Part shown: in pieces, positions 6,001-9,000 of the stretch
How positions within the stretch are numbered: the first letter of the stretch is position 1
How the letters are laid out: every line of letters begins with the position of its first letter
Origin: a virus
Taxonomy: Duplodnaviria > Heunggongvirae > Uroviricota > Caudoviricetes
Reading direction: 5' to 3' (one strand)
DNA: 10,894 bases
IMG/VR virus record: IMGVR_UViG_2740892526_000019
Position numbers: made by a program

Positions 6001-9000
6001 GAAGTAACACCGGACAGTCATGCGTAACCCGCAGAAAAAACCCCGTTTGCGGGTTATTTTGAGCGTTTTGCGGGTTACGTGTTGAGCAAATAATAAACAG
6101 GGTGTTTTGCAACATGCTGATATAAAAGGGTAAAAAATGGTTAGCACGCTAAGATAACCCAATAACCCGCATAACCCGCACATGTTTCTATATATATAAA
6201 TTGAGGTGGCAAATGACCAGAACACGCAGAGACAGAACAGAGCCGAAATATAAAGCGTTAGATATAACAGAGCTGGCCTTAAAGGTGGCAATCAGAACGA
6301 TAGACCGACACGTAGGGGAAGGATACGCGAAGGAACATCCCGACCTGATAAGCGCATTCATGACCACAGCAGCGGCAAACTTTGCCACGTTGACAGAACG
6401 GGAGATTGCCGAAGCGGAACAGGTAACAACCATCAACGTTAAAACCGGAGAGGTGGAATCATGACAGCACAGATAGCGGCTTACGGGCGGCTGGTGGACG
6501 ACCCGCAGGTAAAACAGACCAGTAAGGGCACACCGATGACGCTGGCGCGTATGGCGGTATCGTTGCCATGTAGTCAGGCGCAGGATGGGCAGGCGACGTT
6601 ATGGCTATCGGTCATCGCATTTGGTAAGCAGGCCGACTTCCTGGCTAAACATCAAAAAGGCGACGTTGCCAGCGTATCCGGCACGATGCAGGTCAGCCAG
6701 TGGACCGGACAGAACGGGGAAACGCGGCAGGGTTATCAGGTTATTGCAGACAGCGTAATCAGTGCCCGTGCGGCACGTCCTGGCGGGAACAGACGCAAAA
6801 CCACAGGCACACAGGGTAATCAGCCACCAGCGGGAGGCGATGACCCTTACGGTGACGGTATTCCGTTCTGAGGGGGTGGCGATGGTACATGACCGCATAG
6901 CGGAAGAACTCGAGGCGAAAGGCTTTTACCGGAGGGCGGCGGCGCGATGGGGTGAAGTCATGCTGCTGGTGGAGACAGACAAGGAACGGCATCAGGTTAC
7001 GATGCGACGGCTGGAATGTTCCAGGAAGGCACAGAAGCCACCGGAGCCGCCGGATAACTTCGGAGACCTGAGAAAGGCAGTCGATCGCACTTATGCTGAA
7101 ATGGGTATAGATGGTGTAAGCGATGAAATATGGCGTAATTACCCAGACAGCTAATCAACAGCCGGAGAAATCCGGCTTTTTTTGCACCAGTTGAAACGGT
7201 ATGGCGCATTACCGGGTTTTCGTCACGGTCAGGCATAGTTACTATCTGAAACAAACAGACACAACAGAGGAAAAAACAATGCCGATGAAATTTGATGAGA
7301 TATTAAAACAGCGTGATAAATACCATGCTGACAACATGGAGACGATGAGCATCAATGATTACCGCGCATTCCTGGAGACGGGCGCACTGATTGAAAAGGA
7401 TCAGCATGGTTTTGTGAGATGTGCTCTGTCCGGTGAAATGCTGGCGGTAAATCCTGAACAGATAGATGCATTGATAGAATTTCTGAAAGGGATCAGGGAC
7501 TGAGCACGCATACAGCCGGAGCAATCCGGCTTTTTGTCATTTTTTGTAAATTATTTGTTCGTGGTTGTTCCACGTTGTTCACTGACAGGATCGGCATATT
7601 TTACCCGAACTGAATCATGAGTATTCTCGCCCGTGGTGCCAGGACGCTGGGGCCACTTTCCCGCCTGTTAATGTGCTCGCCAATATTCATTACCAGGCGG
7701 GAAAACGATCGGTGCGATTGCTGATTTCCTTATGAAAAACGGTTGAGTTTTTGCCGCGTCCTGGAGTTCCTTACTTAACCCCAGGACTTTTTTTTATGCC
7801 GAGAATAATCGAATTACGCCAGCAGAAAACCGCCATTAAAAATCAGATGCGCGACATGCTGGAGAACGCGGAAAAAGAAAACCGCAGCCTTAACGATGCA
7901 GAGGGCGCAAAATTTGACGAATTACGCGCTAAAGCTGAATCCCTCGATAAAGACATTTCCCGCCTTGAAGCCATTGCAGACGAAGAGCGCAGCAAGCCAG
8001 GTAAAAGCAGCCAGACCACTGACCCGGCAGAACTCCGCAACTACATCCTGACAGGTGAAACCCGCGCATTAAGTACAGGCGTTCCCGCTGATGGTGGTTA
8101 TACCGTTATCCCCGAACTGAACACCGAAATCATGCGAATGCTGACGGATGAATCCACCATGCGCCGCATCTGTACCGTGAAGAAAATCAGCAGCAACGAG
8201 TTTAAGCAGCTTGTTTCCGCTGGCGGTGCGACCGTTAACCACGGTGAAGAGGGTAAGACACGCGAACAGACCAGCACCCCGCAGATTAACGAGGTGAGCA
8301 TTAAGCTGTATCCGGTCTATGCGTACCCGCGCACCACACAGGAAATCGTGGATTTTTCCGATGTGGACATCCTTTCATGGCTGACGGGTGAGATTGGCGA
8401 CACCTTCACGGAAACCGAAGAAAGCGATCTGGTTGTGGGCGACGGTGACAAAAAAGCAAAAGGTTTTTTATCCGTACCCCGTGCAGAGAAGAACGACAAA
8501 GAGCGTGATTTTGGTACGTTGCAGGTAATTAAACCTTCCGAATCTCTGGCGTGGACATCTGCGGACCCGCTGATCGACCTGAAATTTGCATTACGTAAAA
8601 AATACCGCAAAAACGCGGTCTGGGTGGTTAACTCCACGACGGCGGCAAAACTTCAGAAGGTGAAGAACGCGAACGGTGATTACATCTGGCGCGACCGTTT
8701 ACAGGCGGGTGATCCTGATACGTTGCTGGGCCTTCCGGTCGAATATCTGGAGTTTATGCCTGATAACGTTATTGCCCTGGGTGACTTCAAACGCGGTTAC
8801 TACATTGTTGATCACGAAACAGGTGTTCGCACCAGACCGGACAACCTCACAGAGCCGGGTTTCATCAAAATTTTCACGCAGAAATATTTAGGCGGTGGCG
8901 TGGTGGATTCGAACGCGATCAAGATTCTGGAACTGCCACAGGACGACGATTAACAGCATACAGAAGGGGCTTAAAAGCCCCTTTAGTGTTTTATGGGTGA

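What the first reader, a model, noticed from the sequence alone, without database searches (positions are those of the whole stretch)
7555..7580. Inverted, near-identical copies of a triple-hexamer site 6.2 kb apart
Three GAACAA-type hexamers at exact 10-bp phasing occur at 1297..1322 (after int, before alpA) and, as the reverse complement, at 7555..7580 (after the moron terminator, before the capsid gene), matching over about 26 bp. Helical-phase direct repeats are typical of sites for winged-helix regulators, excisionase/AlpA-type proteins or integrase arm-binding domains. Two copies at the heads of the early and morphogenetic regions suggest one regulator coordinating both. The protein is unknown; AlpA and the PerC-like protein are candidates.
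Basis: seen in the sequence. Interest (0 to 1): 0.6.

Follow-up and report, generated by a model that had tools for sequence, protein, structure and literature searches.

The report
Predicted AlpA operator arrays in cf-PICI
The two inverted triple-hexamer sites are real and belong to a set of four helically phased repeat arrays in the phage satellite EcCIEDL933, at both attachment-site arms, upstream of alpA and upstream of the capsid operon; they are most likely where the excisionase-type master regulator AlpA binds to couple excision, its own induction and capsid-gene expression.

Summary
CAACAAtgtgGAACAAccacGAACAA (1297-1322, +) and GAACAAcgtgGAACAAccacGAACAA (7555-7580, -) agree at 24 of 26 positions, and 0 of 200 shuffles give as many matches.

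The window is the capsid-forming satellite EcCIEDL933 of E. coli O157.

- **More copies.** The full island has two further arrays, in the attL and attR arms. "ACAA at exact 10-bp phase, three or more units" occurs nowhere else in 8-29 kb loci.
- **Conservation.** The pre-capsid array is the conserved island of a diverged intergenic region. All 41 close cf-PICIs have it; classical PICIs lack it.
- **Layout.** Core, then a 10-bp-phased array, then a doubled 12-bp motif, then int. This copies KplE1, where the excisionase TorI binds GTTCG x3 at 10 bp, and P4. AlpA is 45% identical to P4 Vis, an excisionase that also regulates late promoters.
- **Who binds what.** The doubled motif changes with the integrase clade. 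The phased arrays do not.
- **Covariation.** cf-PICIs that carry an HTH_17 regulator instead of AlpA keep the same promoter frame, but with TTACCC x3 arrays.

Best reading (about 0.55): these are AlpA operators of a dual-function excisionase/regulator. No binding data exist. This is a new member of a known kind and of moderate interest.

The parts
1..1230 (+). int, a tyrosine integrase with an Arm-DNA-bind_3 domain (P4-type)
   Evidence: Pfam PF13356 and PF00589. Annotated as tyrosine-type recombinase in NZ_CP022689. 23% identical to P4 Int and 22% to KplE1 IntS.
1277..1322 (+). Distal alpA-upstream array. Five 10-bp-phased units: ATACAA, CAGCAA, CAACAA, GAACAA, GAACAA.
   Evidence: The homologous position holds 5-6 units in L002 (CFT073), L003, L007, L009, L010 and L016.
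1537..1562 (+). Weak proximal array GAACAAtacGACACAAtaaGACACC. It overlaps a promoter-like site, TTGCCA-17-AACAAT (1515-1543), about 50 bp upstream of alpA.
   Evidence: The block is conserved in other type-1 loci. Functional status unknown.
1595..1783 (+). alpA, a 62-aa winged-helix excisionase/regulator and the proposed binder of the arrays
   Evidence: PF05930, E = 5e-17. 45% identical to P4 Vis, E = 1e-16. 29% identical to TorI. The solved AlpA-family structure 8c3t matches at E = 2e-6. [quoted passage not shown]
7512..7535 (+). Intrinsic terminator ending the early/accessory region, immediately upstream of site 2
   Evidence: The hairpin is structurally conserved, with sequence changes, in other cf-PICIs (alignment A1).
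7535..7580 (-). Pre-capsid array. Two in-phase degenerate units, TTACAA and TGACAA, lie inside the conserved TTTTGTAAATTAT element.
   Evidence: It is the conserved island of a diverged intergenic region. It is present at 0-1 mismatch in 41 of 41 IMG/VR cf-PICIs with capsid at least 97% identical, about 214 bp before the capsid ATG. It is absent from the classical PICIs L002 and L003.
7600..7627 (+). Candidate weak sigma-70 promoter of the capsid/packaging operon (TTTACC-16-TATTCT). It would place the three perfect units at about -55 to -80.
   Evidence: Read by eye. It scores 8 of 12, below the threshold of the scan, which found no promoter. The aligned positions in L013-L015 read TTTACA-16-TATGTT. 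Inference only.
7634..7795 (+). Structured leader between the candidate promoter and the capsid ATG
   Evidence: Fold energy -62.4 kcal/mol, z = -4.3. 17-bp inverted repeat at 7657-7704 (I21). No Rfam family matches.
7796..8953 (+). Major capsid gene, the first gene of the cf-PICI packaging module (followed by protease 8993-9565 and portal 9567-10778)
   Evidence: Pfam PF05065, PF04586 and PF04860. RefSeq annotation.

Best explanation
The hexamer arrays are operator arrays for the island's own recombination directionality factor, AlpA. AlpA is a 62-aa winged-helix protein of the Xis/Vis/TorI family.

Proposed mechanism:
- One AlpA monomer sits on each roughly 10-bp unit (consensus GAACAACG(T/A)G), head to tail on one face of the helix. 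The monomers form a short cooperative, DNA-bending filament.
- The island carries four such arrays.
- The two in the attL and attR arms let AlpA direct Int-mediated excision.
- The one downstream of int feeds AlpA's known positive autoregulation.
- The one behind the terminator at 7555-7580 places the self-encoded capsid/packaging operon under the same switch. It most likely activates a weak promoter about 20 bp downstream.

A separate doubled 12-bp motif (GGTGTAGTTAAT x2 on each arm) is the probable integrase arm-type site.

Shown here: the arrays, their number, positions, conservation and covariation, and the homologies.

Inferred: that AlpA is the binder, one monomer per unit and filament formation, and the sign of regulation at the capsid promoter.
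For: 1. **Specific placement.** In E. coli PICI and cf-PICI loci of 8-29 kb, three or more ACAA at exact 10-bp phase occur only at four places: the attL arm, the int-alpA spacer, the attR arm and, in cf-PICIs, upstream of the capsid gene. Shuffles give about 0.003 per 11 kb.

2. **att geometry.** The core GGACATATTT was defined against the empty K-12 site. The arrays are centred at -134 and +103 from the core. The doubled motif is centred at -92 and +141, next to the int ATG.

3. **Experimental precedent with the same layout.**
- In KplE1 attL the excisionase TorI binds GTTCG/GTTCG/GATCG. In the sequence these are three units at exact 10-bp phase, just upstream of PintS. The IntS arm-type sites lie next to the ATG (PMC2951348; sequence).
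- P4 has four nTCC(G/T) units at exact 10 bp between the core and the int-proximal annotated 'attP arm sequence repeat' pair.
- The P4 and KplE1 excisionases repress Pint from sites within att. P4 and P2-type excisionases also regulate distant promoters through similar repeats (PMC7498355).

4. **AlpA belongs to that family.** PF05930; 45% identical to P4 Vis, annotated 'excisionase and transcriptional regulator'; 29% identical to TorI.

5. **Published AlpA function.** AlpA activates PalpA and is sufficient for excision and replication of EcCICFT073 (PMC6092414). EcCICFT073 has a 6-unit array at the same position. An alpA mutation abolishes EcCIEDL933 induction.

6. **The doubled motif tracks the integrase clade; the phased arrays do not.**
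- GGTGTAGTTAAT goes with Int at 76-100% identity.
- TGTGTATTGCA goes with helper-embedded PICIs, whose Int is 42-47% identical (L035, L176, L180).
- GGTATCCT goes with the tRNA-Ile2 elements.
- L035 keeps the perfect pre-capsid array.

7. **Covariation.** The cf-PICIs L177, L179 and L183 keep the conserved frame (TTTTGTAAATTAT, promoter, leader). L177 and L183 have an HTH_17 regulator in place of AlpA. All three carry (G/T)TACCC x3 at 10 bp. In L179 and L183, phased TACYY pairs occur elsewhere only in the att arms.

8. **No phage factor is needed.** cf-PICIs make DNA-filled capsids without any helper phage (bioRxiv 10.1101/2025.02.11.637232).
Against: - There is no binding, footprint or reporter experiment for any of the four arrays.
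- PICIs with the second AlpA allele (51-68% identical) have AATATC x4 where type 1 has the GAACAA array. They still keep TTGTTC arrays at attL and before the capsid. Either both alleles read GTTC-type units, or the distal array and the other arrays have different binders.
- In EcCICFT073 AlpA did not change Pint activity, although an array sits 55-90 bp upstream of the int ATG.
- Site 2 has the orientation of the attL-Pint arrangement. In P4 and KplE1 that arrangement is repressive, so activation of the capsid operon is not secured.
- The promoter I propose is below the scan threshold.
- Triple tandem sites could also be integrase arm sites, as with lambda P'1-P'3 (own knowledge).
- The pre-capsid arrays of L176 and L180 are degenerate (4 mismatches).
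Confidence: 0.55

Rival explanations
1. The GAACAA arrays are arm-type sites for the N-terminal Arm-DNA-bind_3 domain of the island integrase. The internal copies, after int and before the capsid gene, are extra Int-binding sites that let Int regulate alpA and the late operon or bridge them to the intasome. The doubled 12-bp motif would then be the excisionase site.
For: The arrays lie in both att arms at fixed positions. Int has an arm-binding domain. Three contiguous arm sites are known in lambda, P'1-P'3 (own knowledge). Type-2-AlpA cf-PICIs keep TTGTTC at attL and before the capsid, with Int 76-78% identical, while AlpA and the distal alpA array differ.
Against: The doubled motif, not the phased array, changes with the Int clade. 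It also has exactly the architecture of the annotated P4 'attP arm sequence repeat' pairs. In KplE1 the 10-bp-phased GTTCG units are excisionase sites, and the arm sites lie next to the int ATG. L035, with Int only 42% identical and a different doubled motif, keeps a perfect pre-capsid array.
Confidence: 0.15
2. The arrays are, or are also, docking sites for an excisionase-type protein supplied in trans by the helper phage or by another resident element, as P2 Cox binds three 10-bp-phased cox boxes to switch on P4 PLL. This would be the unknown helper signal that induces alpA.
For: P4 carries three TTAAAG units at exact 10 bp at 9176-9205, annotated only as 'ori type 2 repeat'. That these are the boxes through which P2 Cox activates PLL is from my own knowledge. 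alpA transcription is induced by helper phages through an unidentified factor. Excisionase cross-talk between a PICI, an ICE and a phage has been shown (PMC11773190).
Against: AlpA alone, without phage, activates PalpA and causes excision. cf-PICI capsids form without any helper. The arrays also sit in the island's own att arms and covary with the island's own regulator type. Lambda and phi80, both inducers, have different excisionases (own knowledge).
Confidence: 0.1
3. A host protein binds the arrays. One candidate is an OmpR/PhoB-family response regulator that reads 10-bp direct repeats, such as the TorR boxes CTGTTCATAT. Another is a nucleoid protein. The arrays would then couple the island to host physiology.
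For: The repeat geometry fits winged-helix response regulators, and TGTTC is shared with the tor box (own knowledge). Host factors would explain conservation across islands with different Int and AlpA alleles.
Against: No such arrays occur in about 13 kb of chromosomal flank. The arrays sit where excisionase sites sit in KplE1 and P4. The array sequence switches to TTACCC in islands with a different early regulator. Only 5 of the 10 tor-box positions match.
Confidence: 0.05
4. Site 2 has no present function. It would be a relic of an att arm or Pint region copied when the capsid module was captured, or a target of PerC or of the small ORF 7279-7503.
For: Site 2 has the same orientation as the attL array relative to the downstream gene. 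A GATCGG follows it at a similar distance as in attL. The late modules of PICIs are mosaic (PMC10111431).
Against: It is the best-conserved segment of the intergenic region while its flanks diverge. It is kept in 41 of 41 close cf-PICIs and in cf-PICIs whose capsids are 63-75% identical. It is replaced, not lost, in type II elements. PerC is absent from L015 and L017, which keep the site. The small ORF also occurs in the classical PICI L003, which lacks the site.
Confidence: 0.07

Closest known systems
P4 Vis, the excisionase and late-promoter regulator of satellite phage P4
   Same: AlpA is 45% identical to Vis. P4 attP has the same order of elements: core, a 10-bp-phased four-unit array, a doubled 12-bp arm repeat, then int. 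Per PMC7498355, Vis represses Pint from sites within att and also regulates promoters away from att. That those promoters are the late/morphogenetic PLL and Psid is from my own knowledge. This is the same logic as att arms plus alpA plus the capsid operon here.
   Different: The unit sequence differs: nTCC(G/T) in P4, GAACAA/TTGTTC here. P4 has no capsid genes of its own, whereas here the downstream target is a complete self-encoded capsid/packaging operon. The P4 array sequence assignment is my reading of the sequence, not a cited footprint.
TorI sites in attL of prophage KplE1 (CPS-53)
   Same: Three excisionase sites with core GTTCG/GATCG at exact 10-bp phase lie between the core and Pint, on the int-coding strand. 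The integrase arm sites lie next to the int ATG (PMC2951348). The TTGTTC(G/C) units here contain the same GTTC core, in the same orientation and relative position.
   Different: TorI is only 29% identical to AlpA. The TorI sites described there lie in attL, whereas here arrays are on both arms plus two internal promoter regions. TorI represses PintS, whereas AlpA is a known activator of its own promoter.
Apl of phage 186 and Cox of P2, dual-purpose excisionases (including the cox boxes at P4 PLL)
   Same: Direct repeats 10-11 bp apart at att, and again at promoters, with cooperative binding and bending (PMC7498355). Three TTAAAG units at 10 bp lie upstream of a satellite promoter in P4.
   Different: These are unrelated HTH families with different recognition sequences. 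Apl and Cox mainly repress the switch promoters of their own phage.
RdfS of ICEMlSymR7A
   Same: A winged-helix excisionase that binds attP and promoter regions and coordinates excision with downstream functions. It forms filaments with one subunit per helical turn (PMC11963761).
   Different: No recognisable consensus motif was found for RdfS. Here the units are sharply defined (A3, C4, A5 and A6 are invariant or nearly so in 35 units).
Doubled attP motif of helper-embedded PICIs (tgTGTATTGCa x2)
   Same: It has the same architecture as the GGTGTAGTTAAT x2 motif that accompanies the arrays: two co-oriented doubled copies about 81 bp upstream and 132 bp downstream of the attP centre, against -92 and +141 here.
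   Different: It is a different motif from the finding, with a 12-bp period and two units. That paper reported it as unique to HE-PICIs, whereas here clade-specific versions appear in other PICIs and in P4.

Membership tests
Operator arrays of winged-helix recombination directionality factors (Xis/Vis/TorI/AlpA type) | Direct repeats spaced about one helical turn apart, several units per array | tested here: met
   Exact 10-bp phasing, 3-6 units per array.
Operator arrays of winged-helix recombination directionality factors (Xis/Vis/TorI/AlpA type) | An array within an att arm, between the crossover core and the int promoter / integrase arm-type sites | tested here: met
   The core was defined against the empty K-12 attB. 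The attL array lies at +92 to +125 and the doubled motif at +135 to +158, with the int ATG at +181. A second array lies in the attR arm. The order matches KplE1 and P4.
Operator arrays of winged-helix recombination directionality factors (Xis/Vis/TorI/AlpA type) | A cognate excisionase gene of that protein family in the same element | tested here: met
   alpA at 1595-1783: PF05930, E = 5e-17; 45% identical to P4 Vis; 29% identical to TorI.
Operator arrays of winged-helix recombination directionality factors (Xis/Vis/TorI/AlpA type) | Physical, cooperative binding of the excisionase to the units, with DNA bending | not testable with these tools
   Needs EMSA or footprinting. No published mapping was found.
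Dual-function excisionases (regulator subset: Vis, Apl, Cox, RdfS) | Further arrays of similar sequence and arrangement at promoters away from att | tested here: met
   Arrays at 1277-1322 (upstream of alpA) and 7535-7580 (upstream of the capsid operon).
Dual-function excisionases (regulator subset: Vis, Apl, Cox, RdfS) | A transcriptional effect of the excisionase exerted through those arrays | not testable with these tools
   The literature shows that AlpA activates PalpA in EcCICFT073, without mapping the site. Nothing is known for the capsid promoter.
Integrase arm-type sites (P4-family heterobivalent integrases) | The sequence covaries with the integrase clade / arm-binding domain | tested here: not met
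   TTGTTC-type units persist where Int is 42-47% identical (L035, L180). The doubled 12-bp motif changes instead.
Integrase arm-type sites (P4-family heterobivalent integrases) | The architecture of the annotated P4 attP arm repeats: tandem 12-bp pairs on both arms, one pair next to the int ATG | tested here: not met
   That architecture is matched by GGTGTAGTTAAT x2, not by the 10-bp arrays.
Replication-origin iterons of the PICI | Clustered next to the pri-rep gene, with a sequence shared across the ori cluster | tested here: not met
   The ori cluster is TAACCCGCA at 5858-6187, immediately after pri-rep. Its sequence and location are unrelated to the arrays.
Q-like antiterminator AlpA of Pseudomonas aeruginosa and its ABE | A Q-like protein with a C-terminal HTH and DNA-contact residues at positions 128-142, plus a single GGGACG element between -35 and -10, a sigma-dependent pause and a downstream terminator | tested here: not met
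   The PICI AlpA is 62 aa and in PF05930, and the sites are multi-unit arrays. The ABE properties are taken from PMC9371919. The two proteins share only a name.
Terminase small-subunit (cos/pac) recognition repeats | Repeats adjacent to the packaging initiation site and specific to elements that carry the cognate TerS | tested here: not met
   The same arrays occur at att and at alpA in classical PICIs that lack this HNH-TerS-TerL module (L002). In the island, terS lies 4.5 kb downstream of site 2.

The most novel reading that the evidence does not exclude
A single excisionase-type protein, AlpA, runs the whole satellite life cycle from one kind of operator: excision at both att arms, its own amplification, and switch-on of a self-encoded capsid/packaging operon.

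In cf-PICIs this late operator is a swappable cassette inside a conserved promoter scaffold. TTGTTC x3 goes with AlpA and TTACCC x3 goes with an HTH_17 excisionase-like regulator. Capsid modules could therefore be re-wired to whichever excisionase the recipient island carries.

This would be the first mapped regulon of the Gram-negative PICI master regulator. It would also give a direct handle on how helper signals reach the island.
Probability: 0.45. Interest if true: 0.55.

Novelty: new member of a known kind. Interest (0 to 1): 0.45.

Why it matters
AlpA is called the master regulator of Gram-negative phage-inducible chromosomal islands, but the papers I could search report no mapped DNA target for it.

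The arrays give a concrete, testable operator: the unit GAACAACG(T/A)G at four positions. This would explain how one 62-aa protein can be both needed for excision and an activator. It would also explain how capsid-forming islands express their own capsid genes without a helper phage.

The arrays separate the likely excisionase sites from the likely integrase arm sites in the attP of a large island family. They also show that the 'doubled motif' reported as unique to helper-embedded PICIs is a general P4-family feature with a clade-specific sequence.

Practically, the motif pair could help define island boundaries and predict which capsid modules answer to which regulator.

Tried and rejected
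- **AlpA search in genome contigs.** It gave only 3 loci, 2 of them distant and without arrays, so it was useless for covariation.
- **Rfam.** An E-value-threshold scan of the window found no family, so neither the alpA nor the capsid leader is a known RNA element.
- **Promoter scan.** Nothing at threshold near site 2. The promoter I give is sub-threshold and read by eye.
- **P. aeruginosa AlpA antiterminator model.** Rejected. It is an unrelated Q-like protein with a single GGGACG site between -35 and -10.
- **PerC as binder.** Rejected. L015 and L017 keep the site without perC.
- **Small ORF 7279-7503 as binder.** No informative domain, and it is present in the classical PICI L003, which lacks the site.
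- **ori iterons and cos repeats.** Rejected on location and sequence.
- **Second att site or invertible segment bounded by the inverted copies.** No core sequence lies near either internal site, and there is no doubled motif there.
- **Exact-motif scan of IMG/VR.** More than 120 hits. About 35 are PICIs or cf-PICIs. Nearly all the rest are unrelated phages' own 10-bp tandem iterons with identical spacers, and no AlpA or Int homologue is detectable nearby. Three of them (L032, L045, L069) are PICI att arms, with the B motif beside the array. The motif is therefore not at background frequency, but the bare pattern is not PICI-specific either.
- **Published evidence that AlpA alone turns on the capsid genes.** The purification strain over-expresses alpA but also carries an induced helper, so this is not decisive. 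The helper-free capsid production reported does not involve AlpA manipulation.
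Full report
**What the window is.**

The 10,894 bases are 100% identical to E. coli O157 chromosomes, for example NZ_CP022689 4515734-4526627. They lie between roxA and phoQ. The published cf-PICI work names the island of strain EDL933 EcCIEDL933, the prototype capsid-forming phage-inducible chromosomal island, 15.4 kb. EDL933 itself matches the site-2 region at 100%.

Gene content:
- int, 1-1230 (Arm-DNA-bind_3 plus Phage_integrase)
- alpA, 1595-1783 (PF05930)
- an icd-like gene and small ORFs
- DUF4222, 3414-3713
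- pri-rep, 3710-5842 (DUF927)
- ori iterons TAACCCGCA, 5858-6187
- ssb, 6461-6871
- perC, 6882-7154
- a small ORF, 7279-7503
- a terminator, 7512-7535
- capsid (7796-8953), protease and portal

**Check of the observation.**

Both sites are exactly as described. The three-hexamer pattern is expected 0.02 times in the window, and 0 of 200 shuffles reach the observed count. The bare hexamer is not enriched. The two sites are the second-longest inverted repeat in the window: 25 nt, 96% complementary.

Site 1 is the 3' end of a longer array of five phased units starting at 1277. The homologous array has six units in EcCICFT073. Site 2 may extend to five units. The TTGTAA of the conserved TTTTGTAAATTAT element and a TTGTCA before it are in the same 10-bp phase.

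**There are four arrays, not two.**

I read the whole island plus flanks (locus L001 = window plus 9 kb on each side). Two further, degenerate copies appeared:
- CTACAAcgtgAAACAAgctgGAACAA (- strand), 64-89 bp upstream of the int ATG
- AAACAAcgtgGAACAAatagACACAA (- strand), near the right end

Alignment with the empty K-12 site defines the crossover core as GGACATATTT(AT). In attP coordinates the arrays are centred at -134 and +103 from the core.

Each array is followed by a tandem doubled 12-bp motif, GGTGTAGTTAAT x2. These are centred at -92 and +141, and the right-hand one ends 22 bp before the int ATG.

A purely mechanical test, 'ACAA at exact 10-bp spacing, three or more units', finds only these four places in L001 (29 kb). 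It finds the corresponding places in eleven other E. coli PICI loci at five different integration sites: roxA, abgR, ilv/yifB, ygaZ and cspD. It finds nothing in the chromosomal flanks. Shuffles give 0.003 such runs per window.

Over 35 units the consensus is G-A-A-C-A-A-C-G-(T/A)-G, with A3, C4, A5 and A6 invariant or nearly so.

**Conservation of site 2.**

Classical PICIs have no array before their late genes. Examples are EcCICFT073 (L002) and an O55:H7 island (L003). They share the early region up to the terminator at 7535.

In E. coli cf-PICIs whose intergenic region and capsid gene have diverged too far for blastn, only about 55 bp around site 2 still match (H123-H130). In the alignment the block TTTTGTAAATTAT-TTGTTCGTGG-TTGTTCCAsG-TTGTTC is invariant. 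The terminator upstream is conserved only as a structure, and the sequence downstream diverges.

I also collected cf-PICIs by capsid homology rather than by motif. Of the IMG/VR loci with capsid at least 97% identical, 41 of 41 carry the array with 0-1 mismatch, 214-219 bp before the capsid ATG.

**Which protein? Comparison with mapped systems.**

The literature held in the library states that excisionase (RDF) sites are typically direct repeats one helical turn apart and are bound cooperatively with bending. [quoted passage not shown] RdfS does the same on an ICE (PMC11963761).

For KplE1, the mapped TorI sites have cores GTTCG, GATCG and GTCCG. One block of three is separated by 2 nt. The IntS arm-type sites carry TAAA and overlap the promoter (PMC2951348). 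In the K-12 sequence that block reads aGTTCGtcatgGTTCGcttcaGATCG at exact 10-bp phase, directly before the TTGACA -35. The arm sites (GGGTAAAA, GGATAAAA, TTTTACCC x2) lie next to the ATG.

The P4 record annotates 'attP arm sequence repeat' as tandem 12-bp pairs on both sides of the core, one pair next to the int ATG. These sit at +75 and -134 from the core centre. Between the core and that pair lie four nTCC(G/T) units at exact 10-bp phase, the only such run in P4.

EcCIEDL933 attL therefore has the same order of elements as both systems: core, 10-bp-phased array with a GTTC core on the int-coding strand, doubled motif, int.

AlpA is 45% identical to P4 Vis (E = 1e-16). The P4 record annotates Vis as 'excisionase and transcriptional regulator'. 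AlpA is 29% identical to TorI.

**Which protein? Covariation.**

Three integrase clades have three different doubled motifs:
- GGTGTAGT(T/C)A(A/C)T with Int at 76-100% identity
- TGTGTATTGCA in the helper-embedded islands L035, L176 and L180, with Int 42-47% identical. This is the motif described in PMC10111431, at -81 and +132.
- GGTATCCT in the tRNA-Ile2 islands L183 and L179

A fourth motif, GTTACCTGACCC, occurs in an adjacent island in L179.

The phased TTGTTC-type units do not follow these changes. L035 keeps a perfect pre-capsid array, and L180 keeps GTTC-type units next to its core. This argues that the doubled motif is the integrase arm site and that the phased array belongs to something else.

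The cf-PICIs L177, L179 and L183 have capsids 66-70% identical. They keep the conserved frame around site 2: TTTTGTAAATTAT upstream, and the promoter-like block and the hairpin GTGGCACTCAGACGTGAGCCGCCAC downstream. The three units, however, are (G/T)TAC(C/T)C.

L177 and L183 have an HTH_17 excisionase-like protein in place of AlpA, and L183 has a different integrase at tRNA-Ile2. The early region of L179 is not in the locus. In L183 and L179, phased TACYY pairs occur elsewhere only in the att arms. The pre-capsid operator thus changes together with the early recombination/regulation module. In each type it resembles the att-arm phased units, not the doubled motif.

**Functional context from the literature.**

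- In EcCICFT073, AlpA activates its own promoter, does not change Pint, and is sufficient for excision and replication. Helper phages induce alpA through an unknown factor (PMC6092414).
- An alpA mutation abolishes EcCIEDL933 induction and transfer.
- cf-PICIs make DNA-filled tail-less capsids even without a helper phage (bioRxiv 10.1101/2025.02.11.637232). Capsid-operon expression therefore cannot depend on a phage-encoded activator.
- I found no paper that maps AlpA operators in PICIs.

**Proposed mechanism.**

AlpA monomers would bind head to tail, one per 10-bp unit.
- At the att arms this would shape the excisive intasome together with Int bound to the doubled motifs.
- At 1277-1322 it would drive the known autoactivation.
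- At 7535-7580 it would control the capsid/packaging operon.

A weak promoter candidate, TTTACC-16-TATTCT (7600-7627), lies 20 bp downstream of site 2, so the three perfect units would sit at about -55 to -80. The aligned sequence in other cf-PICIs reads TTTACA-16-TATGTT. The scan tool found no promoter at its threshold, so this is inference.

The geometry resembles the three cox boxes upstream of P4 PLL.

Site 2 has the same orientation relative to its downstream gene as the attL array has relative to int. Site 1 is the odd one out. It also raises the possibility that the capsid promoter region derives from a Pint-like arrangement. Because P4 Vis and TorI repress Pint while RdfS activates it, the sign of regulation at site 2 is not settled.

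**Weak points.**

- No binding data exist.
- PICIs with the second AlpA allele (51-68% identical; L011, L012, L075, L103, L105, L182) have AATATC x4 at the place of the distal GAACAA array and a CGAAC-type proximal array. They keep TTGTTC arrays at attL and before the capsid.
- This can be reconciled if both alleles read GTTC-type units, since the R-x-x-R-Y part of the recognition helix is shared, and if AATATC serves another factor. It is equally the main argument for the integrase rival.
- The pre-capsid arrays of L176 and L180 are degenerate.

**Rejected ideas.**

- PerC: absent from L015 and L017, which keep the site.
- The P. aeruginosa 'AlpA' antiterminator: an unrelated Q-like protein with a single GGGACG element.
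- ori iterons and terminase sites: wrong place and wrong sequence.
- A cryptic att site or invertible segment: no core and no doubled motif near the internal sites.
- Background occurrence: the exact motif scan of IMG/VR returns PICIs and cf-PICIs, plus unrelated phages' own 10-bp tandem iterons with identical spacers.

**Verdict.**

The feature is real and larger than reported. It is best explained as the operator set of a dual-function excisionase/regulator, a known kind of system (P4 Vis, 186 Apl, P2 Cox, TorI, RdfS). It has a new member, PICI AlpA, and a new downstream target, a satellite's own capsid/packaging operon.

Confidence that these are excisionase-type operator arrays is about 0.8. 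Confidence that AlpA is the binder is about 0.6. Confidence in the full model as stated is about 0.55.

Noticed in passing
L001 8955-8978 and 24183-24206 (outside the window: 22 bp upstream of the int ATG, and in the attR arm): A doubled 12-bp motif, GGTGTAGTTAAT x2, lies on both att arms. It has the same architecture as the annotated P4 'attP arm sequence repeat' pairs and as the HE-PICI motif TGTGTATTGCA x2, which was reported as unique to HE-PICIs. The sequence changes with the integrase clade. These are probably the integrase arm-type sites.
   Followed up: yes
L011, L012, L075, L103, L105, just downstream of int (for example, the L011 int-alpA spacer): PICIs with the second AlpA allele (51-68% identical) carry four 10-bp-phased (A)AATATC units where type-1 islands have the GAACAA array. 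The binder is unknown, and no such array is seen in their attL.
   Followed up: partly
L183 9792-9816, L179 536-560, L177 5840-5864: cf-PICIs of a second type keep the conserved frame around site 2 but carry (G/T)TACCC x3 at 10-bp phase. L183 sits at tRNA-Ile2, and L177 and L183 have an HTH_17 regulator instead of AlpA. The HTH_17 gene of L183 is preceded by AAGTACTTAAC repeats about 21 bp apart.
   Followed up: partly
window 1415-1452: A conserved hairpin in the alpA leader (AAAGGCAT...ATGCCTTT) shows compensatory changes between islands (GGCGT/ACGCC). It is a possible attenuator or terminator between a distal promoter and alpA.
   Followed up: no
window 7634-7795: The leader before the capsid gene is strongly structured (z = -4.3). 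It includes a 17-bp perfect-stem hairpin (7657-7704) and a final hairpin that sequesters the AGGA ribosome-binding site and is followed by T8 just before the ATG at 7796. There is no Rfam match. The first two hairpins are conserved with sequence changes in other cf-PICIs.
   Followed up: partly
window 7158-7181 and 7512-7535: Two copies of the same 24-nt terminator (96% identical) flank the small ORF 7279-7503, as if that ORF were inserted as a cassette with its own terminator.
   Followed up: no
window 1488-1502, 2614-2628, 7541-7555: There are three copies of a T(T/G)CTGTAAATCATA-like motif. The third is the TTTTGTAAATTAT element that is invariant next to site 2 in cf-PICIs of both array types. 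Its meaning is unknown beyond being in phase with the array.
   Followed up: partly
L001 23416-23853 (outside the window, between the last gene and attR): Five to eight copies of a GGCGCGGTAACTnGyTGATAtT-like repeat, depending on stringency, several paired with small hairpins. Function unknown; this could be a packaging or accessory region.
   Followed up: no
L196 (phage P4) 3971-4006 and 9176-9205: P4 has four nTCC(G/T) units at exact 10-bp phase between the attP core and int; these are likely the Vis boxes. The three 'ori type 2 repeats' are TTAAAG units at 10-bp phase, that is P2 Cox boxes upstream of PLL.
   Followed up: partly
L035, L176, L180 (IMG/VR contigs): These are capsid-forming PICIs embedded in a prophage terminase large-subunit gene (helper-embedded cf-PICIs). 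They have two or three AlpA paralogues, the first overlapping the end of int.
   Followed up: partly
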